Positions 34,928-42,916 of a stretch of 64,000 nucleotides of DNA are shown piece by piece. The position numbers and the translations under genes were made by a program. The DNA lies in the NCBI GenBank assembly GCA_965661285.1, contig CBFIDD010000003.1:269161-333160 (forward strand), read 5' to 3'. Positions within the stretch are counted from its first letter, which is position 1. Each line of letters begins with the position of its first letter. Below the pieces are notes generated by a model. The model made no database searches. It was not told the DNA's origin and was given only the letters and a program-made list of their open reading frames with translations. The DNA comes from Poseidonia sp. (lineage in GTDB: Archaea > Thermoplasmatota > Poseidoniia > Poseidoniales > Poseidoniaceae).

Positions 34928-35527
34928 TCAAGGGAAGAAGACCGTTTCCGCACCCTCAATCCACTGCTTCTCTTTCTTCATGCAGCGTTTGAATTCCGCC
35001 GACTCAAGATGCTCGCCCAGCCAAGCGTGAACGTAGGCCCAGGGCTGAGCGTCGAACCAGTCCCGGTCGTGGTTGGCGAACTGCCGCACGAACGGGAACA
35101 ATGCGTCGTTGAGTTGGGGCGCAAAGGCCGGACCCTTTTCCAGTCGAGCGTCAAGGTCGCTCAAGTAAGCCGAAGCCAATGTGCGATGCTCCACTTCGTC
35201 CACGTCTTCGTAGCGGTTCGGATACTTGTAGCGGTCCAGGTGGAATTTGAATTCCTCATCGTTACGTTCCACCCAGTGCGCTTCCTCTTCACTGAGCTCC
35301 CAGCCCAGAACGTGCTGCATGATCTCCAAACTCTCCTCGATGACCGTGCCGTCAGGCAGCAAGAGCACGGGCACCGTGCCCTTGGGTGAAATCTCCATCA
35401 TGTGGTCTGGGCGGTCACGCAGCACGACTTCCCGAAGTTCGACCTCGTAGCCCTCCCGAACGATGGACATCCGTGCCCGCATGGCGTAGGGGCAGCGGCG
35501 AAAGGAGTAGAGAATGGGCAGCGACAT
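34928..35527 (-). CDS. Glutathione S-transferase family protein
   Basis: LYSFRRCPYAMRAR, SPKGTVPVL, ESLEIM, FKFHLDRYKY, ALFPFVRQFA. Confidence 0.9.
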   Translation of the reverse strand: MSLPILYSFRRCPYAMRARMSIVREGYEVELREVVLRDRPDHMMEISPKGTVPVLLLPDGTVIEESLEIMQHVLGWELSEEEAHWVERNDEEFKFHLDRYKYPNRYEDVDEVEHRTLASAYLSDLDARLEKGPAFAPQLNDALFPFVRQFANHDRDWFDAQPWAYVHAWLGEHLESAEFKRCMKKEKQWIEGAETVFFP

Positions 35528-35544
35528 GGCGACCCTTCCTGCAA

Positions 35545-36609
35545 TCACTCGGGCGGTGTGGGCGGAGCGTAGCCGCCGTCAACCGCTTCCTGGACGGTCG
35601 CCATGTCGGCGTCGACCATCATCTGAACGAGTTCTTCAAACGAGGTGCTGGGCACCCAGCCGAGTTCCTTCTCGGCCAGCGCAGGGTCGCCGATGAGCAA
35701 ATCCACTTCAGCGGGACGGAAGAATTTGGGATTGGTGCGTACACGCACGACGCCATTCTGGTCGGTGGCGATGGTGTCAACGTCTTCTCCCGACCACGTC
35801 AGGTCCATGCCGACATGAGAGAAGGCGAGGGTGATCATGTCGCGCACGCTGTGCGTGCGACCGGTCGCCACAACGTAGTCGCCGGGCTTTTCCTGCTGGA
35901 GCATGCGCCACTGCATCTCAACATAGTCGCCGGCGAAACCCCAGTCTCGCTTGGCATCGACGTTGCCAATCCACAAACACTCGTCAAAGCCATGGGCGAT
36001 GCGAGCGGCGGTCATGGTGACCTTTCGGGTGACGAATTCAAGTCCGCGACGTGGGCTTTCGTGGTTGAAGAGAATGCCCGTGCAGGCGAACATGTCGTAA
36101 GATTCACGGTAGTTTCGGGTGATTTCGAAGGCGAAGACCTTGGCGCAGCCGTAGGGCGAGCGGGGGTGGAAGGGCGTCAACTCGGTTTGGGGAACGTCAC
36201 GAACCTTGCCGTACTGTTCGGAAGAGCCCGCCTGATAGAAGCGGCAGTGAGGCGCATGCTTGCGAATGGCTTCGAGGCAGCGAAGGGCACCCAGGCCGGT
36301 GATGTCAGCGGTCATCATGGGCGAGCGCCACGATTCGGGAACAAAGGACATGGCGCCGAGGTTGTAGAATTCATCGGGTTGGGTCTGGCTGACGGCGTTG
36401 TCGATGGAGTTCTGGTCGGCCAAATCGCCGTTGAGGAGGTGGAACTTGTCGTTGCTCATCAGGTGGTTGATGAGACTGCGACCGGAGGTGGGCTGTGAGA
36501 CACGGCGCACCAATCCGTAGACGGTGTAGCCCTTTTCGAGAAGCAATTCAGCGAGGTAGGAGCCGTCTTGGCCCGTGATGCCCGTGATCATCGCGGTCTT
36601 GCTGCCCAT
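35545..36609 (-). CDS. gmd: GDP-mannose 4,6-dehydratase
   Basis: ITGITGQDGSYL, PRSPYGCAK, GILFNHESPRRG, FVTRK, RDWGFAGDYV, RPAEVDLL. Confidence 0.96.
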   Translation of the reverse strand: MGSKTAMITGITGQDGSYLAELLLEKGYTVYGLVRRVSQPTSGRSLINHLMSNDKFHLLNGDLADQNSIDNAVSQTQPDEFYNLGAMSFVPESWRSPMMTADITGLGALRCLEAIRKHAPHCRFYQAGSSEQYGKVRDVPQTELTPFHPRSPYGCAKVFAFEITRNYRESYDMFACTGILFNHESPRRGLEFVTRKVTMTAARIAHGFDECLWIGNVDAKRDWGFAGDYVEMQWRMLQQEKPGDYVVATGRTHSVRDMITLAFSHVGMDLTWSGEDVDTIATDQNGVVRVRTNPKFFRPAEVDLLIGDPALAEKELGWVPSTSFEELVQMMVDADMATVQEAVDGGYAPPTPPE

Positions 36610-36719
36610 GTGGCTTGGCAGATGCTGTCCCTTTTCAAACGGTCGCCTGTATGGCCGGAAAAAACAGCCTCGAAACCCGGCCCCTTTGATTTTAAGTACG
36701 CCTTGGCCACCCTTTTGCC

Positions 36720-38021
36720 ATGGCACAAGCGGAAGAGGGGCGACGTCCTCGTCTTCTCATCGTGCGGGGCTCCTTTGCGACCATGGGCGGCGCCGAGCGC
36801 GAACTCCTCCAACTCATTCGCATGGCCCACAACCGCTGGGATGTCCATCTGGCCACCCTTGACATCTCCACCGAAGCCCAAGACCTCATGCTTCCTGCGA
36901 CACCCACCCTCATCACGCCCGCCACACCCCTCAACTGGCCCGAAGGCGCCCTCGCTGAGGTCACCGCGGCCGCCAGCAAAACAGCCGAAAAGGCGTGGGC
37001 GAAGATGGATATTCCGTGGGAACAGTTCGACGTGGTCCACCTTTCCGTGTGCCGAGGCACGCTTGAGATCTTGCCGCTCGTTCCACCGCATCTCCCCGTG
37101 AACTACCATTGTCTCGAACCACCGCGCTGGCTGTACGAGGACGTGCTTCACCGTCATCCAAACGGCCAACCAAAACGTCCGCTGTGGCTGACGAAGATGG
37201 TGTTTACACGTCAACGCCGACGGGACCAGCGCTATGTTCGCACCCTCCTCAAGCGCCCAAAAAGTGCCATCTTCGGAAACTCGCCGTGGAGTCAAATCCT
37301 CCTCGAGCGCACCTACGGCCTGCCTTCTGACCCGACCACCACCAACGGTCATCCACCCCGGCGAGACGAACACCAGCGCCCCCTCGAAGGCTCCCATGTA
37401 CTGCCAACCGTCGACCTCAGCAACTGGCCTGCGCAGTCCACGCCCGAGGAACGCGACGAGATGGTCGAAGTCGCCCTGCCCGAGGGGCCGTACGTCATCA
37501 CCATCGGTACGGTCTCCCATGTCAAAGGGACCTACGATACAATGCGTTCGCTGGTGAACAGCCCGTACGCGCTGGTCCAAGCCGGCGGCGGTTCAGCCGA
37601 AGACAAGGCGGCGCTGGTGGCTGAAGGAAAGCGCCTGGGCGTTGAGGTCGTGTGCATGCCTCGCCTTTCACAAGCGGCGCTCGTGGGTGTGGTTCGCGGG
37701 GCTCATGCCATGGTCAGCCATGCACATCACGAACCGTTCGGGTTCACGCCGCTCGAAGCCATGGCCGTGGGTGTGCCTCCCATCATGGTTGACGAAGGCG
37801 GCTTTCACTTCACGATGACCGGTTCGGGCGCCGGCGTGCTCGTTCAACGAGACGACCGGGAAGGCTGGCTCACGGCCTTTGAAGCGGCTGCGGACCCCGA
37901 AACCCGAGCGGCATGGGCCAGCGCAGGTCGAAACCACGTCGCAAGCAACTATCCTCCGGAGCGTCAACTCGAGGCGATCGAACGCATCATGGCGCCGTTC
38001 TTCAACGACGAACCGGTCTGA
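36720..38021 (+). CDS. Glycosyltransferase family 4
   Basis: GGAER at the N-terminus and EPFGFTPLEAMAVG (E-x7-E). Confidence 0.9.
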   Translation: MAQAEEGRRPRLLIVRGSFATMGGAERELLQLIRMAHNRWDVHLATLDISTEAQDLMLPATPTLITPATPLNWPEGALAEVTAAASKTAEKAWAKMDIPWEQFDVVHLSVCRGTLEILPLVPPHLPVNYHCLEPPRWLYEDVLHRHPNGQPKRPLWLTKMVFTRQRRRDQRYVRTLLKRPKSAIFGNSPWSQILLERTYGLPSDPTTTNGHPPRRDEHQRPLEGSHVLPTVDLSNWPAQSTPEERDEMVEVALPEGPYVITIGTVSHVKGTYDTMRSLVNSPYALVQAGGGSAEDKAALVAEGKRLGVEVVCMPRLSQAALVGVVRGAHAMVSHAHHEPFGFTPLEAMAVGVPPIMVDEGGFHFTMTGSGAGVLVQRDDREGWLTAFEAAADPETRAAWASAGRNHVASNYPPERQLEAIERIMAPFFNDEPV

Positions 38022-38070
38022 ACAATTCTCTTTTTGCATCCTTTATGTAGGCTCAAGCATCTACTCTATC

Positions 38071-38706
38071 ATGAACGAAGAGCGAAGCCCACGCCATCTG
38101 CTTTTGGTCGGTGCCGGAGGCATCGGCACCCAACTGATTGAACTCTTGGTCCCTGCCTTGCGCATGGTCAACCTGCAAGGTAGCATCACCTTGATGGACG
38201 CCGACATCGTTGAAGCCACCAATCTGGGCCATCAACGCTACACAAAGGACGACATCGGGCAAGCCAAAGTCGACGCCCTCGCCAAGCGCTTGGACGACGA
38301 GGACGCAACCTTACGCGTCAAGGCCATCGCTGAGAATTTGCGAACGGCTGACCAACTCAACGGCTACGATTTCGTGGTGGTCTGCGTCGACCGTCCCGAG
38401 CCGCGTCGTCTCGTACACCAACTGGATATCCCTTGGCTGGACCTCAGGTGCAGCGGCGACGGCCATGTGGCCCTGTCATCTCAATCCCTTCCTGCCTTGG
38501 TTGAGCGCATGACGCCCGACCACGCTCCAGCCAGTTGTCAAGTGCCTGGCGCCTTGGATGCTGGCAATTTGGAATACGGCTTTGCTTCGGCCGCTGCTTT
38601 TGGTGCCCAATGGGCCACCCAACTTTGGCGAGGGCGCCCAGCGCCCGTACAGTCCATGGGCAGCCTGACCTACGGCGCACTCTCCTTCCCGGAGGTGAGC
38701 GCATGA
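38071..38706 (+). CDS. ThiF/MoeB/E1-like adenylyltransferase
   Basis: VGAGGIG, D.D.VEATNLGHQ, DIGQAKVDAL, VVCVD, and a candidate catalytic Cys in PASCQ. ATG 38071 follows CTTTATG. Confidence 0.85.
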   Translation: MNEERSPRHLLLVGAGGIGTQLIELLVPALRMVNLQGSITLMDADIVEATNLGHQRYTKDDIGQAKVDALAKRLDDEDATLRVKAIAENLRTADQLNGYDFVVVCVDRPEPRRLVHQLDIPWLDLRCSGDGHVALSSQSLPALVERMTPDHAPASCQVPGALDAGNLEYGFASAAAFGAQWATQLWRGRPAPVQSMGSLTYGALSFPEVSA

Positions 38707-39251
38707 TTGGGCTTCCCGATGCCGCCGACCTCGAACTGCACGACGACGTGTGGGAGCGAGCCTGTATGGCCGCGCAGGATAAGCGCGTGGACGACGAGGA
38801 TTTGCTCACCGCTCAACGCATGTTGGCAGAGGCCGGCCGATGGGATGGCGTCTACGTCCTCTCGGTCATGGCCGGGCTTGAAACTTCAGTGCTCATCGAT
38901 GCCGATGAGAAGATTTTCATCGACTGGGGCACGGCCGGCCAGGTCACCCTCCAGCCTCCGGTTGGCGGACGTATTCCGTTCAAGCTGTGGGTTCACACCC
39001 ACCCTCGGTTCGCATCGTACTGGAGCATCACCGACACCACCAGTCTCAGCTTGGGTGCAGGCATTCTCGAGTCCGCCATGGTGCTGGGACAACCCGGGCC
39101 AAAACACAGCAGCAACCGTTCTTTTGTGGACGGTGACCACGACACCATGCTCAGCAACCAAGGGCCGTTGAGCCAATGGACCAGCGAAGAGCCCGTGCCG
39201 TGGACCGAATGGTACGGACTCAACAACATCGATGTCGAGGTGGTTGAGTGA
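38703..39251 (+). CDS. JAB/MPN+ metallo-isopeptidase-like protein
   Basis: Upstream Glu (GLETSVLID) and HTHPRFASYWSITD = H-x-H-x7-S-x2-D. ATGA overlap with ThiF and GGAGGTGA RBS. Confidence 0.8.
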   Translation: MIGLPDAADLELHDDVWERACMAAQDKRVDDEDLLTAQRMLAEAGRWDGVYVLSVMAGLETSVLIDADEKIFIDWGTAGQVTLQPPVGGRIPFKLWVHTHPRFASYWSITDTTSLSLGAGILESAMVLGQPGPKHSSNRSFVDGDHDTMLSNQGPLSQWTSEEPVPWTEWYGLNNIDVEVVE

Positions 39252-39484
39252 CCGCACGTGGACCCAAAGACGAAGAGGAGCACTTCAAGGCCCTCTTGGC
39301 CGTCCTCAACGGCCGCGGGCGAAGCGTTGCCGACGTCATCGAAGAGTTGACTGGCGAGACCCCGTCAGAAGAGACCGTCGAAGCCGTGGTGAATCGCCTG
39401 CAAATGGCCCAAGAAAGCGGTGAGCATGTCGACATTGTCGCCATCGTCCACTCGCTCAGCGACCTGGCCGAGCAGTGGGCCTGA
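39248..39484 (+). CDS. Small acidic helical protein (78 aa)
   Basis: GTGA overlap with the JAB stop and GAGGTGG RBS. Ends ...DLAEQWA. Confidence 0.75.
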   Translation: MTARGPKDEEEHFKALLAVLNGRGRSVADVIEELTGETPSEETVEAVVNRLQMAQESGEHVDIVAIVHSLSDLAEQWA

Positions 39485-41557
39485 TCACTGGTTCGTGTAG
39501 GTCGGCCGACGGTTCTCAATGAGGGCCGACAAGCCTTCCAGTGCATCTTTGGTCGAGAAAATCGTGTTCAGGCCGTCGAGTTCCAACTTCAAGCCAGCCG
39601 AAAGGTCGGTCGTGGCCGTAGCGTCGATCAAATCGCTCGCCATCCGCAGCCCAATCGGTGCGGTGAACGAGAGGCTCTTGATTTGACGAGCGACCGTCTT
39701 TTCTTCCTTGTCAAAGCCATCCGGGCAGTCGCCCTTCATGAGCACGGCCATGTTTTCATCGGTGAAGAACGAGGTAGCAAACTTCGCCACGGGCGAGGCG
39801 GGATTGGCCGGCTGGCCGGGGTACTTCTCAGCGGGCTTTCCTTCACCGGCCAGCGTTGCAATGCAAGCGTCAACGCCAGCCACATCGACCAAATGGGTCA
39901 CGAGGCCGAGGTCGGTGGCCGTGTTCGCATCCATGAAATTCCCGGCGAGCACCGCCCAGCGTGCGGCAGGAATGCCGCAGATTCGAGCCGGTCGTTGTGA
40001 GCCTCCAAGTCCAGGATAGATGCCGATGGACGTCTCGGGGAAACGGAACTGGGTTCGGCGGGTGCCGATACGATAATCGCAGGCAAGGGCAAGTTCCAAT
40101 CCGCCGCCAAGGGCCAAACCGGTGGTCAAGGCGATGGTGGTTTTGGGTGAGGATTCCAACATGTTGAGCAGGACATGCCCGTCTGCGGTGAAATCATAGA
40201 TGTCAGGAATGGCCTCAGCCCGAATCTTGTCCACAAAGAACTTCACGTCAGCGCCGGCGACAAACGCCTTTCCTGCACCGTCAAGGACAATGGTGTTGAC
40301 CTCAGCGTTGGCGTTGGCGGCCTCAACGGCCTGTGTCAACTGCTTGACCACCACGACATTGAGTGCATTCATGGCTTCAGGACGGTTGATGGTGATGGTC
40401 GCCACGCCGTTGTTCACGGTGGTATCAACATAGGAGAACGCCCAACCGGTCGCGCCCTGCTGGGTAAAGAAAGCGGGGACGTTCCAGCCTTCTCCGGCCG
40501 TCTGTGCGTAGGCAGCGGCCATGCGATGAGCTTCGCCAACGCCGATGCGGTTCATCATCTCAAACGGTCCACGAGCCCAGCGCAAGCCGACTTTCGCCCC
40601 GCGGTCAACGTCTTCCATGCTGCAGATGTCTTCGTCAACGATCTGGGCAGCCACACCAAACACGACGCCCAAAAGGCGCTCGGAAACGGCGGTGTATTGC
40701 TCGTCGCTGTAGGTGGCGTCCTCTGAAACATCCCACTGTTCGTTCGCTTCGACGAGCGCTCGAAGATTGGCGGCCCCGGTGTAGCGGGGCGTGTTGAGCT
40801 GCTCGGCCAAATAATCGGTGGAATGCAGGGCGATAGGAGGGCCTGTGAGGTTCATCAATCCAAAGGGGCCCAAACCGATGCGGAAGGCTTTGCAGGCGAT
40901 GGCGTCAATTTGTGCGGCGTTCGCTGCACCCTCTTCGAGCAGAAGACACGCTTCGTTGAGCCAAGGCACAAAGAAGCGGTTGACGACAAACCCGGGTCGG
41001 TCGGCGCAAACGATGACCACCTTCCCAAGCATCTTGCAGTACTGCACGACCTTGTCGATGGTCGCTTGACTCGAGGCCTTGGCGGGAATCACTTCCACCA
41101 GACGGTTCTTGGCGGGGTGGTAGAAAAAGTGCAGGCCAACAAAGCGGTCGGGGCGGCCGGTGGCTTCGGCGAGTGCGTTGACCGAGAGCGAAGATGTGTT
41201 GGAAGCGAGAATGGTACCCTCGCCGCAGGCTTCGTCCAACGCCGTGAACACCGCCGTCTTCACGTCAAAGTCCTCGAAAACGGCTTCAATGACCAAATCC
41301 GTGTTCTCTGCGGTGTTGTCCACGCCCACCACGCCGGTGATGCGTCCCTGAATCGCCTCGACTTGCGCAGGTGAGAAAATGCGTCGCTCGACGGCTTCTT
41401 CGAGGAACGAAGCGATGATGGATTGGCCACGCTCCACCCACTGGAGTTCGCGGTCGACCATCTGCACGTCAAATTCTTCTTGTGCGCTTTTTTGAGCGAT
41501 GCCTGAGCCCATGTTGCCGGCGCCGACCACGGCGACGCGCTGAATCGGTTGAGTCAT
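39485..41557 (-). CDS. 3-hydroxyacyl-CoA dehydrogenase / enoyl-CoA hydratase fusion (archaeal domain order)
   Basis: VGAGNMGSGIA, IEAVFE, ASNTSSL, GLHFF, GFVVNR, followed by INRPEAMNAL, FVAGAD, GGGLELALACD, FPETSIG. Confidence 0.95.
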   Translation of the reverse strand: MTQPIQRVAVVGAGNMGSGIAQKSAQEEFDVQMVDRELQWVERGQSIIASFLEEAVERRIFSPAQVEAIQGRITGVVGVDNTAENTDLVIEAVFEDFDVKTAVFTALDEACGEGTILASNTSSLSVNALAEATGRPDRFVGLHFFYHPAKNRLVEVIPAKASSQATIDKVVQYCKMLGKVVIVCADRPGFVVNRFFVPWLNEACLLLEEGAANAAQIDAIACKAFRIGLGPFGLMNLTGPPIALHSTDYLAEQLNTPRYTGAANLRALVEANEQWDVSEDATYSDEQYTAVSERLLGVVFGVAAQIVDEDICSMEDVDRGAKVGLRWARGPFEMMNRIGVGEAHRMAAAYAQTAGEGWNVPAFFTQQGATGWAFSYVDTTVNNGVATITINRPEAMNALNVVVVKQLTQAVEAANANAEVNTIVLDGAGKAFVAGADVKFFVDKIRAEAIPDIYDFTADGHVLLNMLESSPKTTIALTTGLALGGGLELALACDYRIGTRRTQFRFPETSIGIYPGLGGSQRPARICGIPAARWAVLAGNFMDANTATDLGLVTHLVDVAGVDACIATLAGEGKPAEKYPGQPANPASPVAKFATSFFTDENMAVLMKGDCPDGFDKEEKTVARQIKSLSFTAPIGLRMASDLIDATATTDLSAGLKLELDGLNTIFSTKDALEGLSALIENRRPTYTNQ

Positions 41558-41599
41558 GGCCCTTGCGAATCCAATGACGCTCATGAAGCATACGGCCGG

Positions 41600-42781
41600 T
41601 CAAGATGAGGAAATCTGACCCCACGCGTCCGACATGTCGCGATGAAATCGGTCCGGGGCGAGGAACGCAACGTGCTCCATCAGGCGTCGTTCTGGCTGGC
41701 GGGGCTCACCGTTTCGGCCTTTCCATGCTGAATGAACCTCGACGATGGCCTGAACCCAAGCCTCCACGTCCTCCGGGTCAATCACGTCGCCTTCGGGCAT
41801 CAACTCGTTGTGGGCCGGACGATTCGAGGCCACGACGGGCTGACCAGCCGCCATCGATTCAACGGTGGGGTAACCAAAGCCCTCTGCGGCCGATGGGAAC
41901 AGCAGCGCTTCGCAGTGCCAGCGGTAGGTGTTCAGTACCTCTTCGCTGATGTTGGAGCCGACCCAATGCCACGCCACGCCATGCTGCTTGGCCAAAGCGG
42001 TGGCTGAAGGCCCTCCGTGGGGACACGTATCACCGCCGATGTGGTGCACCCGAACATCATCGGCAACAGCTGGAGGGAGTTGGGCGAGCACGCGAATGAG
42101 GAAAGAAAGGCGTTTGCGAGGGTCGTGACTGCCCACAACCAACAGGTCGCAAGCCGAGGCCCGCAAGGCTTCAGGCGGGGCAGGAAGGTCGGCGGGAGGG
42201 GCATAACGCTCCACGTCGATGGCGTAGGGGATTTGGTAGAGCGGCGTGTTGGGAAAGTGTTGCCGGCACGATGCTGCAACAGCGCCGGTACTGCAAATGA
42301 ACGCATCTGCGCGCCCCAGCCCGTTCAACAAACGGCGAAGGTCACGGCGGCGAATGAAGCCGGGACGGGGCTCCCCCACCTCCACCCGTTCGCCCGAAAG
42401 GGTGACAATCTCAGGGGCCAAGTGGAAGAAATCGTGGACGTAGACGACCACGGGCACGGGTGCGTCGTGAGGAACGAGGTGGGCTTGCTCTTGGTCGCTG
42501 ACAAACACCAAATCCACCTCGCCTGCTTGATGGCGCTGTTTGATGGCGGACCGGACGCGCGTAGGATGGCGAAACCATCGCTCACGCAAACGCTTCGGCC
42601 CCGACGGGTTATCGCCGAGATCGTACTCTTCGACGCCGGCGCTTTGCCAGCCGGGAATCTCGCCGGCATCGAGAGCGACCTTGAGGTCGTGAAACGCACC
42701 ACCAATCCCCGAAAACCGCGTCAGGACGCCGCCCCTTACGAGCAACACCCGCTTGGTGCGGTCTGAGGCGCCTGGCTCCAT
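41600..42781 (-). CDS. Glycosyltransferase family 4
   Basis: YVHD, PRKR, FPSAAEGFGYPTVESMAAG. Start MEPGASD chosen because TTTCAAG lies 24-30 nt upstream. Confidence 0.88.
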   Translation of the reverse strand: MEPGASDRTKRVLLVRGGVLTRFSGIGGAFHDLKVALDAGEIPGWQSAGVEEYDLGDNPSGPKRLRERWFRHPTRVRSAIKQRHQAGEVDLVFVSDQEQAHLVPHDAPVPVVVYVHDFFHLAPEIVTLSGERVEVGEPRPGFIRRRDLRRLLNGLGRADAFICSTGAVAASCRQHFPNTPLYQIPYAIDVERYAPPADLPAPPEALRASACDLLVVGSHDPRKRLSFLIRVLAQLPPAVADDVRVHHIGGDTCPHGGPSATALAKQHGVAWHWVGSNISEEVLNTYRWHCEALLFPSAAEGFGYPTVESMAAGQPVVASNRPAHNELMPEGDVIDPEDVEAWVQAIVEVHSAWKGRNGEPRQPERRLMEHVAFLAPDRFHRDMSDAWGQISSS

Positions 42782-42916
42782 GCTACCGGGAGGGGTTGGT
42801 TCCTCTTGAAAGGAGGGCATCACACGAGCCGTACGCCATGAGATTCGAGGCCGATTCGCGCCGTGGTGTGGAAAAGACATCAAGTAGTCAAACCCACTCC
42901 GGCAAAGCGAGTCCCG

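What the first reader, a model, noticed from the sequence alone, without database searches (positions are those of the whole stretch)
38071..39484. E1-like ThiF + JAB peptidase + small non-ubiquitin protein: candidate new conjugation system
Seen: three genes coupled by ATGA and GTGA overlaps with strong RBSs. The ThiF has the ATP-binding motifs and a candidate catalytic Cys (PASCQ) but lacks the two CxxC zinc motifs of canonical MoeB/ThiF/UbaA. Gene 2 has a complete JAB signature (E...H-x-H-x7-S-x2-D). Gene 3 is a 78-aa acidic, helical-looking protein with no terminal GG, ending EQWA. No ThiS/MoaD/SAMP, E2, or thi/moa gene is adjacent. Known: E1+JAB pairs write and erase modifiers in SAMPylation, PRTRC, Bil/Bub and CBASS Cap2/Cap3, and CBASS shows that non-ubiquitin proteins ending in Gly or Ala can be E1-activated. 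Inference: an undescribed archaeal modification system in which the small protein is the modifier, the target or an adaptor.
Basis: partly seen in the sequence, partly recalled or inferred. Interest (0 to 1): 0.75.

Follow-up and report, generated by a model that had tools for sequence, protein, structure and literature searches.

The report
Archaeal ubiquitin-like system, tag encoded elsewhere
These three genes are the activating enzyme, the processing protease and a small helper protein of a ubiquitin-like system of marine archaea, and its real tag is a Gly-Gly-ended ubiquitin-fold protein encoded elsewhere in the genome as three head-to-tail copies, much like a eukaryotic polyubiquitin gene.

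Summary
Three overlapping genes encode a 211-aa ThiF/E1-like enzyme without CxxC motifs, a 182-aa protein with a complete JAMM motif, and a 78-aa acidic helical protein. All three are under purifying selection (median dN/dS about 0.1).

It is an apparently undescribed archaeal modification cassette, but the small protein is very unlikely to be the modifier.
- In the sister family of the same order, a 70-aa protein ending in Gly-Gly plus 0-2 cap residues sits directly upstream of the E1. The E1 is sometimes fused to the JAB there.
- In this genome the same protein is encoded on another contig as three exact 70-aa head-to-tail repeats. Each ends in GG, followed by a 3-residue cap.
- It folds as a beta-grasp.
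- It is present or absent together with the JAB and the small gene in nearly all genomes compared.

The genome also holds a separate conventional rhodanese-fused MoeB/UbaA-type E1 and a MoaD/SAMP-type protein. No E2 was found.

Most likely this is an E2-less, SAMPylation-like tagging system specific to Poseidoniales, in which the JAB matures a polyubiquitin-style precursor. The small protein is a core accessory of unknown role.

Earlier notes of this scan reached the same reading on other genomes.

The parts
38041..38048 (+). TATA-box-like element (CTTTATGT) about 24-31 nt before the E1 start codon. It suggests the operon has its own promoter and a leaderless or very short-leader mRNA.
   Evidence: A CTTTA(T/A) or GTTTAT/TTTTAT core sits at the same distance from the start codon in 16 of 16 aligned upstream regions. 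The promoter and leaderless reading is inference from general knowledge of archaeal promoters.
38071..38706 (+). E1-like adenylating enzyme, 211 aa. It is a minimal ThiF fold with no zinc CxxC motifs, no rhodanese domain and no E2 domain. The candidate catalytic Cys is C156, in the SCQ motif.
   Evidence: Pfam ThiF 3.7e-19. All NCBIfam subfamily models score far below their cut-offs. A family profile matches solved MccB, UBA6, UBA1, NAE, MoeB and ThiF chains. Invariant residues come from 19 sequences.
38703..39251 (+). JAMM/MPN+ type metallopeptidase, 182 aa. It is the predicted precursor-processing and deconjugating enzyme.
   Evidence: E60, H98, H100, S108 and D111 are invariant in 20 of 20 sequences. 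The family profile aligns its HxH...S..D block to AMSH-like and archaeal Rpn11-like chains at E 0.004-0.08. One homologue reaches Prok-JAB at 20.3 bits against a cut-off of 25. The protein is fused to the E1 in 3 sister-family loci.
39248..39484 (+). Small acidic four-helix accessory protein, 78 aa. Its role is unknown. It is not the modifier.
   Evidence: 136 close homologues were found, nearly all 78 aa among the 120 listed. A profile search of 1.84 billion representatives found 74 clusters, nearly all stand-alone proteins of 45-101 aa. The gene lies adjacent to the JAB in 37 of 41 cassettes. Median dN/dS is 0.094. pI is 4.05-4.90 in 19 of 19 members, and there is no conserved Cys or Lys. 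The model has pLDDT 64 and four helices.

Best explanation
The triad is the enzyme core of an E2-less ubiquitin-like system specific to Poseidoniales.

The substrate is a 70-aa beta-grasp protein whose mature end is P-G-L-(V/I)-G-G. In this genome it is not linked to the triad. It is encoded at G000:C4:89105-89731 (minus strand) as a 217-aa precursor of three exact 70-aa head-to-tail repeats plus a 3-residue cap.

Proposed mechanism, all steps inferred:
1. The JAMM peptidase cuts after each Gly-Gly, releasing monomers and removing the cap.
2. The E1 adenylates the exposed C-terminal Gly with ATP and probably carries it on the invariant Cys156.
3. The tag is passed to lysines of target proteins without an E2, as in archaeal SAMPylation.
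4. The same JAMM enzyme removes the tag again.

The 78-aa acidic helical protein is translated together with the JAB. It is a non-catalytic accessory subunit (adaptor, specificity factor or regulator), not the modifier.

Shown here: the gene set, the conserved motifs, the fold of the tag, the precursor layout, and the shared presence or absence of the parts.
Not shown here: any enzymatic step, any target, and any binding.
For: Linkage:
- In the sister family the Ubl gene lies directly upstream of the E1 in 5 of 10 genomes (G044, G048, G041, G046, G040). One further genome (G057) has one gene in between.
- E1 and JAB are fused into one 409-422-aa protein in 3 loci.

The precursor:
- The own genome holds 3 repeats in one 217-aa ORF.
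- Family-wide there are 2-4 repeats at an exact 70-aa period, each ending in GG, followed by a 2-4-residue cap.
- The monomeric sister-family forms end in GG plus 0-2 residues.
- Tandem copies are also present in a single-contig genome, G095.

Fold of the tag:
- The AF2 model has pLDDT 82.7 and a beta-beta-alpha-beta-beta-(alpha)-beta order with a free tail.
- The listed Foldseek hits are ubiquitin, SUMO, MoaD, ThiS and similar proteins, with probabilities up to 0.99.
- There are sub-threshold ThiS, MoaD and SAMP1 sequence hits.

Shared presence and absence:
- Of the 24 genomes of the two other families, 9 have both JAB and Ubl and 14 have neither. One (G040) has the Ubl while its JAB is interrupted by masked bases.
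- Of 20 further same-family genomes, Ubl and small gene are in 8 of 8 JAB-positive and 0 of 12 JAB-negative ones. The negatives include 2 genomes inside an otherwise positive genus.

A separate conventional system exists:
- The genome has a 388-aa MoeB/UbaA-type E1 with a rhodanese domain and a MoaD/SAMP-type protein that ends exactly in GG.
- The cassette is therefore not needed for the usual sulfur-transfer role (inference).

No E2:
- UQ_con, Prok-E2_A and Prok-E2_B give 0 hits in the own genome, which is 93% complete.
Against: - No step is demonstrated. There is no evidence of conjugates, targets or expression here.
- The JAB does not reach the Pfam Prok-JAB cut-off, and its fold was not modelled.
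- Foldseek found no match for the Ubl at E <= 0.001. The best was 9.4e-3.
- Three genomes of the genus (G006, G009, G012) have E1, JAB and a di-Ubl but no detectable small gene, so the small protein is not indispensable.
- JAMM + E1 + GG-capped carrier trios also exist in sulfur-carrier biosynthesis (recalled, not tested here). That rival is not excluded.
Confidence: 0.62

Rival explanations
1. Sulfur-carrier pathway. The Ubl is a ThiS/MoaD-like carrier, the E1 makes its thiocarboxylate, and the JAMM peptidase only trims the cap or releases a product. This would resemble the CysO/Mec+ and QbsE/QbsD systems (recalled, not tested here).
For: The tri-Ubl has sub-threshold ThiS, MoaD and SAMP1 similarity. 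A GG end with a short cap and an adjacent JAMM fits those systems. Archaeal SAMPs are known to serve both roles (established knowledge).
Against: The E1 has no rhodanese domain, and no biosynthetic enzyme is conserved next to the cassette. A conventional rhodanese-fused E1 and a MoaD-type carrier are already present. A multi-copy precursor suggests stoichiometric use rather than a catalytic carrier (inference).
Confidence: 0.15
2. The 78-aa helical protein itself is adenylated by the E1 at its C-terminal Ala and conjugated, as the CD-NTase is in CBASS.
For: The gene is tightly coupled to the JAB and travels with the cassette. It ends in Ala in most members of this genus.
Against: The C-terminus varies in both length and residue. 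It ends in A or V here and in A, C, T or S in the sister family, with one or five residues after the conserved Trp. The predicted last helix runs to residue 77 of 78, so there is no free tail. A dedicated GG-ended Ubl exists and is linked to the E1.
Confidence: 0.03
3. Anti-virus defence module of the Bil, Bub or CBASS-Cap2/Cap3 kind.
For: The E1 matches the E1 part of PADLOC Cap2 (E1-E2) models at 1e-11 and weaker. Presence within genera is patchy.
Against: There is no E2 domain and no CD-NTase or effector next to it. The cassette keeps a fixed chromosomal position between the same housekeeping-type neighbours across the genus. In three sister-family genomes the Ubl gene lies between what look, by eye, like ftsZ-like and rpl15e-like genes. 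The JAB profile found nothing in the viral contig scan.
Confidence: 0.05
4. Sub-hypothesis on the small protein only, compatible with the main explanation. It is a DNA-binding autoregulator (ribbon-helix-helix or winged-helix-like) of the operon.
For: The pattern V-R-x-P-x-D-D-E-E, a helix, G-x-S and a second helix in many members resembles the RHH layout (my reading). There are weak Pfam leads to Rv0623-like and VapB-type antitoxin families, with a best E of 0.03 in 2 of 19 members.
Against: pI is 4.05-4.90 in 19 of 19 members. The N-terminal motif is missing in the members that follow fused E1-JAB genes. No fold match was found.
Confidence: 0.12

Closest known systems
SAMP / UbaA / HvJAMM1 system of Haloferax volcanii (archaeal SAMPylation)
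   Same: An archaeal, E2-less trio: a GG-ended beta-grasp tag, a single ThiF-type E1 and a JAMM/MPN+ peptidase.
   Different: The E1 here scores 38.6 bits against the UbaA model's cut-off of 450 and lacks CxxC and rhodanese. The tag is a separate family, below the SAMP1 and MoaD cut-offs, and is made as a 2-4-unit polyprotein with a cap. There is an extra small helical subunit. The genome also holds a real MoeB/UbaA-like E1.
Eukaryotic polyubiquitin precursor genes (UBI4, UBB/UBC)
   Same: Head-to-tail units at an exact period, each ending in Gly-Gly, with extra residues capping the last unit. This implies proteolytic release of monomers.
   Different: There is no detectable sequence homology to ubiquitin: no Pfam family at E <= 0.1. 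The presumed processing enzyme is a JAMM metallopeptidase. No E2 or E3 was found. The layout is probably convergent.
Bacterial polyUbl operons (row 6e of Iyer et al. 2006, PMC1779556; the Bub operons of the preprint PMC11601603). I read passages only of both papers.
   Same: Tandem Ubl domains together with an E1 and a JAB, which are sometimes fused.
   Different: The bacterial sets include an inactive E2/RWD-like protein and a metal-binding protein, and the fusion order is JAB then E1. Their two- and three-domain Ubls are described as intact multi-domain proteins that form dimers and filaments. Here every unit ends in GG, monomeric orthologues exist, the fusion order is E1 then JAB, and no E2-like protein was found.
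Caldiarchaeum subterraneum ubiquitin operon with Rpn11 processing (PMC6043591, abstract seen in a search listing only)
   Same: An archaeal JAMM enzyme matures a capped Ub precursor and removes conjugates.
   Different: That system has a true ubiquitin plus E1, E2 and a RING E3. The tag here is not ubiquitin, and no E2 was found.
PRTRC cassette ThiF (NCBIfam TIGR03736)
   Same: It is the best-scoring NCBIfam model for the E1 (57.8 bits).
   Different: The cut-off is 144.75 bits. No ParB-like or other PRTRC partner is adjacent. The setting is chromosomal and lineage-specific rather than a mobile element.

Membership tests
ThiF/E1 adenylating superfamily (PF00899) | Score above the Pfam gathering cut-off, plus the nucleotide-binding GxGxxG loop | tested here: met
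   69.2 bits against 28.1. GxGGIG is invariant in 19 of 19 sequences.
Canonical MoeB/ThiF/UbaA E1 | Two CxxC zinc motifs, and a score above the equivalog cut-offs | tested here: not met
   No CxxC in the sequence. UbaA scores 38.6 against 450, ThiF 49.7 against 275.25 and MoeB 33.7 against 376.55.
E1 with a catalytic cysteine (thioester-forming) | A conserved Cys after the adenylation domain | tested here: inconclusive
   C156 in the SCQ motif is invariant in 19 of 19 sequences and C127 is nearly invariant. Its structural position and chemistry were not tested.
JAMM/MPN+ metallopeptidase | The E...H-x-H-x(6-7)-S-x2-D metal and catalytic motif | tested here: met
   E60, H98, H100, S108 and D111 are invariant in 20 of 20 sequences. 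The block aligns to the AMSH-like active-site motif.
JAMM/MPN+ metallopeptidase | Pfam Prok-JAB or JAB score above the cut-off, and the MPN fold | tested here: inconclusive
   The window protein has no Pfam hit. One homologue scores 20.3 bits against 25.
Ubiquitin-like beta-grasp modifier | A beta-grasp fold with a flexible C-terminal tail ending in Gly-Gly | tested here: met
   The model has pLDDT 82.7. The listed Foldseek hits are Ub, SUMO, MoaD and ThiS at E 0.009-0.05. The final G is invariant and the preceding G nearly so over 40 units.
Polyubiquitin-type precursor | Head-to-tail identical-length units, each ending in GG, with a terminal cap | tested here: met
   The own genome has 3 units of 70 aa plus a 3-residue cap. 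Relatives have 2-4 units with spacing of exactly 70 aa (in one locus the 140-aa gap hides a unit that my motif missed, and one search finds 4 units there).
Ubiquitin family proper (PF00240) / ThiS (PF02597) | A sequence match to the family model | tested here: not met
   0 Pfam families at E <= 0.1 for three monomers. The PF02597 genome search did not pick up the poly-Ubl. NCBIfam thiS scores 29.6 against 37.45.
CBASS Cap2/Cap3 | An E2 domain fused to the E1, and a CD-NTase target in the operon | tested here: not met
   The PADLOC matches cover only the E1 part of the 426-778-position Cap2 models. The protein is 211 aa. The neighbours are a glycosyltransferase and a beta-oxidation enzyme.
Bil / Bub bacterial ubiquitination-like operons | A dedicated E2 (UBC-like) protein | tested here: not met
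   PF00179, PF14457 and PF14461 give 0 matches at E <= 1 in the own genome, 93% complete. A very divergent E2 cannot be excluded.
PRTRC system | PRTRC_ThiF above its cut-off, with ParB and proteins A-E alongside | tested here: not met
   57.8 bits against 144.75. None of the partners is seen in the flanks. The partner families were not searched genome-wide.

The most novel reading that the evidence does not exclude
Poseidoniales, among the most abundant planktonic archaea, run a housekeeping protein-tagging system that arrived independently at the eukaryotic polyubiquitin strategy. A multi-copy precursor is cut by a JAMM enzyme into GG-ended tags, and a minimal E1 attaches them without any E2 or E3. 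The new 78-aa helical subunit takes the place of the E2/E3 in choosing targets or in switching the JAB between maturation and removal.
Probability: 0.2. Interest if true: 0.85.

Novelty: new variant of a known kind. Interest (0 to 1): 0.64.

Why it matters
It would be a compact Ubl system of four genes in a globally abundant, uncultured archaeal order. Its tag is made as a cleavable polyprotein, a gene layout regarded as typical of eukaryotic ubiquitin.

It offers a simple, testable case of E2-independent tagging and of precursor maturation by a JAMM enzyme. It also bears on how often the polyubiquitin architecture evolved.

All parts are short soluble proteins, so they can be tested by heterologous expression without culturing the organism.

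Tried and rejected
- Complex prediction (E1 + JAB + Ubl + small protein, with the small protein as partner): no answer, score 0.00 against a mark of 0.32. This says nothing either way.
- Fold of the small protein: the model reaches only pLDDT 64. Foldseek against the PDB found nothing at E <= 0.001. The wide VIA search gave a best Z of 4.2, which is noise for a helical model.
- Family searches for the small protein: Pfam, NCBIfam and PADLOC gave nothing. The ESM Atlas returned only one unnamed cluster of 78-aa Thermoplasmatota proteins, probably its own.
- Fused forms of the small protein: the profile search of 1.84 billion representatives found 74 clusters and no informative fusion. The four long hits, of which I read one, look like repeat noise. 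One 152-aa hit looks chimeric.
- A 77-88-aa protein downstream of the di-Ubl in G006, G009 and G012 could have been a displaced copy of the small gene. hhalign gave probability 0.2, so I rejected this.
- Expression: no RNA holder was listed among 24 runs. I did not lay reads.
- The search for related loci with the Ubl alignment: the alignment was too variable to build patterns.
- JAB profile in viral contigs: no relative found.
- ESM Atlas on the 237-aa neighbour family: no useful hit.
- The second PF02597 hit in the genome (L039) lies in a 289-aa ORF that looks unrelated to Ubl proteins, so I discounted it.
Full report
**What is in the window.** Three genes on the + strand overlap by four bases each: 38071-38706 (211 aa), 38703-39251 (182 aa) and 39248-39484 (78 aa). 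GGAGGTGA and GAGGTGG lie 4 nt before the second and third start codons. Upstream of gene 1 a CTTTA(T/A)-type box sits 24-31 nt before the ATG in 16 of 16 related genomes. I read that as an archaeal TATA box with a leaderless or very short-leader mRNA, which is inference. The flanks are a GT4 glycosyltransferase upstream and a convergent 3-hydroxyacyl-CoA dehydrogenase/enoyl-CoA hydratase fusion downstream.

**The three proteins.**
- Gene 1 is a ThiF/E1-fold enzyme: Pfam 69.2 bits against a cut-off of 28.1.
  - Every NCBIfam subfamily model scores far below its cut-off. PRTRC_ThiF gives 57.8 against 144.75 and UbaA 38.6 against 450.
  - PADLOC matches cover only the E1 half of Cap2 models.
  - It has no CxxC.
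  - Over 19 homologues the GxGGIG loop, D43, N51, H54, Q55, K66, D107, R112 and C156 (SCQ motif) are invariant.
- Gene 2 has no Pfam hit of its own, but E60, H98, H100, S108 and D111 are invariant in 20 of 20 homologues.
  - A family profile aligns this block to the active-site motif of AMSH-like and archaeal Rpn11-like chains at E 0.004-0.08.
  - One homologue reaches Prok-JAB at 20.3 bits against 25.
- Gene 3 is an acidic protein (pI 4.47) predicted to form four helices, with pLDDT 64.
- Median dN/dS over 16 genomes is 0.113, 0.100 and 0.094 for the three genes, so the small ORF is as constrained as the two enzymes.

**The missing modifier.** I took the JAB protein to 60 related genomes and read the divergent loci.
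- In the sister family of the order, the E1 and JAB are again followed by a small helical gene that overlaps the JAB stop codon by 1-8 bases. In 3 loci the E1 and JAB are fused into one protein of 409-422 aa.
- They are preceded by a 71-76-aa ORF whose product ends in V-G-G plus two residues, or in A-A-G.
- A profile of four such ORFs found, in the window's own genome, three tandem matches in one frame on another contig, G000:C4:89105-89731 on the minus strand.
- That ORF encodes 217 aa: three 70-aa units, each ending P-G-L-(V/I)-G-G, followed by a 3-residue cap.
- Across the family the gene has 2-4 units at an exact 70-aa period and a 2-4-residue cap. The sister-family forms are single units with GG plus 0-2 residues.
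- Tandem units are also seen in a one-contig genome (G095), so they are not an assembly artefact.
- A unit modelled with a 40-row alignment gives pLDDT 82.7, a beta-beta-alpha-beta-beta-(alpha)-beta order and a free tail.
- The listed Foldseek hits are ubiquitin, SUMO, ISG15, MoaD, ThiS and related domains, with a best E of 9.4e-3 and probabilities up to 0.99. None reaches E <= 0.001.
- The precursor has sub-threshold ThiS, MoaD and SAMP1 matches and no Pfam family at E <= 0.1.

**Do the parts belong together?**
- Adjacency. The Ubl lies directly upstream of the E1 in 5 of 10 sister-family genomes, and a sixth has one gene in between.
- Shared presence, other families. In the 24 genomes of the two other families drawn have both JAB and Ubl and 14 have neither. 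One (G040) has the Ubl without a JAB match. Its locus shows the E1, a JAB ORF broken by masked bases, and the small gene.
- Shared presence, same genera. The pattern splits the same way inside three genera (g5, g8, g11).
These 36 genomes are 67-94% complete. 28 have both, 2 have neither, 3 have JAB only and 3 have Ubl only.
- The whole phylum. In a draw of 401 genomes, the JAB profile matches 45 of 57 genomes of the own family, 13 of 37 of the sister family, and 0 of the 306 others.
- A further test. I took all 12 own-family genomes without a JAB match and 8 of the 45 with one, choosing the latter for high completeness. The Ubl is in 8 of 8 and 0 of 12. The small gene is also in 8 of 8 and 0 of 12, each time just downstream of the JAB.
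- Kin are not independent, so I give these as counts, not statistics.

**The small protein.**
- It lies next to the JAB in 37 of 41 cassettes read:
  - 20 of 20 close loci, one of them cut by a contig end;
  - 8 of 9 sister-family loci, plus G040;
  - 8 of 8 in other genera;
  - 0 of 3 in the G006/G009/G012 clade, where it was not found anywhere in the genome.
- Only G24 (and the start Met) is invariant over 19 sequences. G36 is nearly invariant.
- The C-terminus is not conserved. It is QWA (WV in two of the aligned sequences) in this genus, and in the sister family five varying residues follow the conserved Trp.
- 2 of 19 members have no lysine, and none has a conserved Cys.
- It is therefore not a plausible E1 substrate, catalytic E2 analogue or obligate lysine target.
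- Its pI of 4.05-4.90 in 19 of 19 members argues against DNA binding, although the whole cassette is acidic.
- Its fold and partners remain open. The searches that found nothing are listed under Tried and rejected.

**Other Ubl machinery in the genome.**
- A 388-aa MoeB/MoeZ/UbaA-type E1 with a C-terminal rhodanese domain is present. It scores 283.7 bits on PRK05690 against a cut-off of 266.
- A MoaD/SAMP-type protein that ends exactly in GG is also present.
- UQ_con, Prok-E2_A and Prok-E2_B give no match.
- So the cassette is a second, dedicated system, and no recognisable E2 is present.

**Interpretation.**
- The best reading (0.62) is a SAMPylation-like, E2-less tagging system. The JAMM enzyme matures a polyubiquitin-style precursor and probably also removes tags. 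The minimal E1 activates the GG end. The small protein is a non-catalytic accessory.
- The main rival is a sulfur-carrier pathway (0.15).

**Comparison with what is known.**
- Closest in function is the Haloferax SAMP/UbaA/HvJAMM1 system.
- Closest in gene layout are eukaryotic polyubiquitin genes.
- The bacterial polyUbl operons are also close (row 6e in PMC1779556, passages read).
  - Their multi-domain Ubls are described as acting intact (PMC11601603, passages read).
- A 2024 review (PMC11354881, passages read) lists tandem Ubl genes only for bacteria.
- Four full-text searches found no paper on such a system in Poseidoniales or Marine Group II. Subscription journals and supplements were not searched.

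**Earlier notes of this scan.** After I had reached this reading, look-ups showed that the scan had noted the same cassette (e1-4951281) and the same tandem Ubl gene (e1-1491717, e1-5002649) in other genomes, with the same reading. These are AI notes, not independent evidence. My calls reproduce their main claims on this genome.

**Verdict.** This is a new variant of a known kind of system. Interest 0.64.

Noticed in passing
L083 1336-2178 (= G000:C4, about 225.5-226.3 kb); also L024 5259-6065, L026 1574-2305, L028 5398-6111, L080 2050-2799: A 237-290-aa protein family with no Pfam or NCBIfam match, comparatively basic (pI 6.2-9.6). It lies just downstream of the small gene in 5 sister-family genomes and is unlinked in this genome. 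Among the 24 genomes of the two other families it occurs only in 5 cassette-positive ones. It is found in 31 of 61 relatives overall. It may be a further component or a target.
   Followed up: partly
L021 2136-3137, L023 2604-3704, L029 2809-3891, L076 856-1755: A 300-366-aa protein lies next to the cassette or next to a second Ubl copy in G044, G041 and G057. It has an N-terminal Cys-x2-Cys...Cys-x2-Cys zinc-ribbon-like start and an acidic tail. One member hits the TFIIB zinc-ribbon model weakly (E 0.067). The own genome has no convincing homologue. The likeness among the four is by eye only.
   Followed up: partly
L034 860-1075; L078 1063-1329; L079 1338-1571: A conserved 71-88-aa ORF lies directly downstream of (overlapping or abutting) the poly-Ubl gene in this family. 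It has no Pfam match. It is not demonstrably related to the small cassette protein (hhalign probability 0.2).
   Followed up: partly
L034 1864-3195: The gene upstream of the poly-Ubl encodes a 443-aa protein. It has a long Pro/Ser/Gly-rich repeat N-terminus and a class II aldolase/adducin-type C-terminal domain (Pfam 3.1e-14). A shorter form holds the same position in G006, G012 and G009.
   Followed up: no
L073, L074, L075 (G058, G040, G056): In three sister-family genomes the unlinked Ubl gene lies between what look, by eye, like an ftsZ-type gene and a ribosomal protein L15e-type gene. That is a housekeeping setting. These names are my reading of the translations and were not tested with a tool.
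   Followed up: no
L030-L032 (G006, G012, G009): In the one clade that lacks the small gene, the JAB carries a C-terminal extension of about 15 residues that contains a Trp. Whether it replaces the small protein is unknown.
   Followed up: no
G057: C224 (L029), C171 (L076), C31 (L082): This genome has two Ubl copies on different contigs, and its small gene lies on a third contig near a contig end. It may hold a second or split cassette.
   Followed up: no
window 34928-38021 and 39485-42883: The cassette sits among sugar-modification genes and a fused beta-oxidation enzyme: two GT4 glycosyltransferases, GDP-mannose 4,6-dehydratase and a GST-like gene. The glycosyltransferase upstream of the E1 is kept in the three divergent same-genus loci whose flanks I read, L030-L032.
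   Followed up: partly
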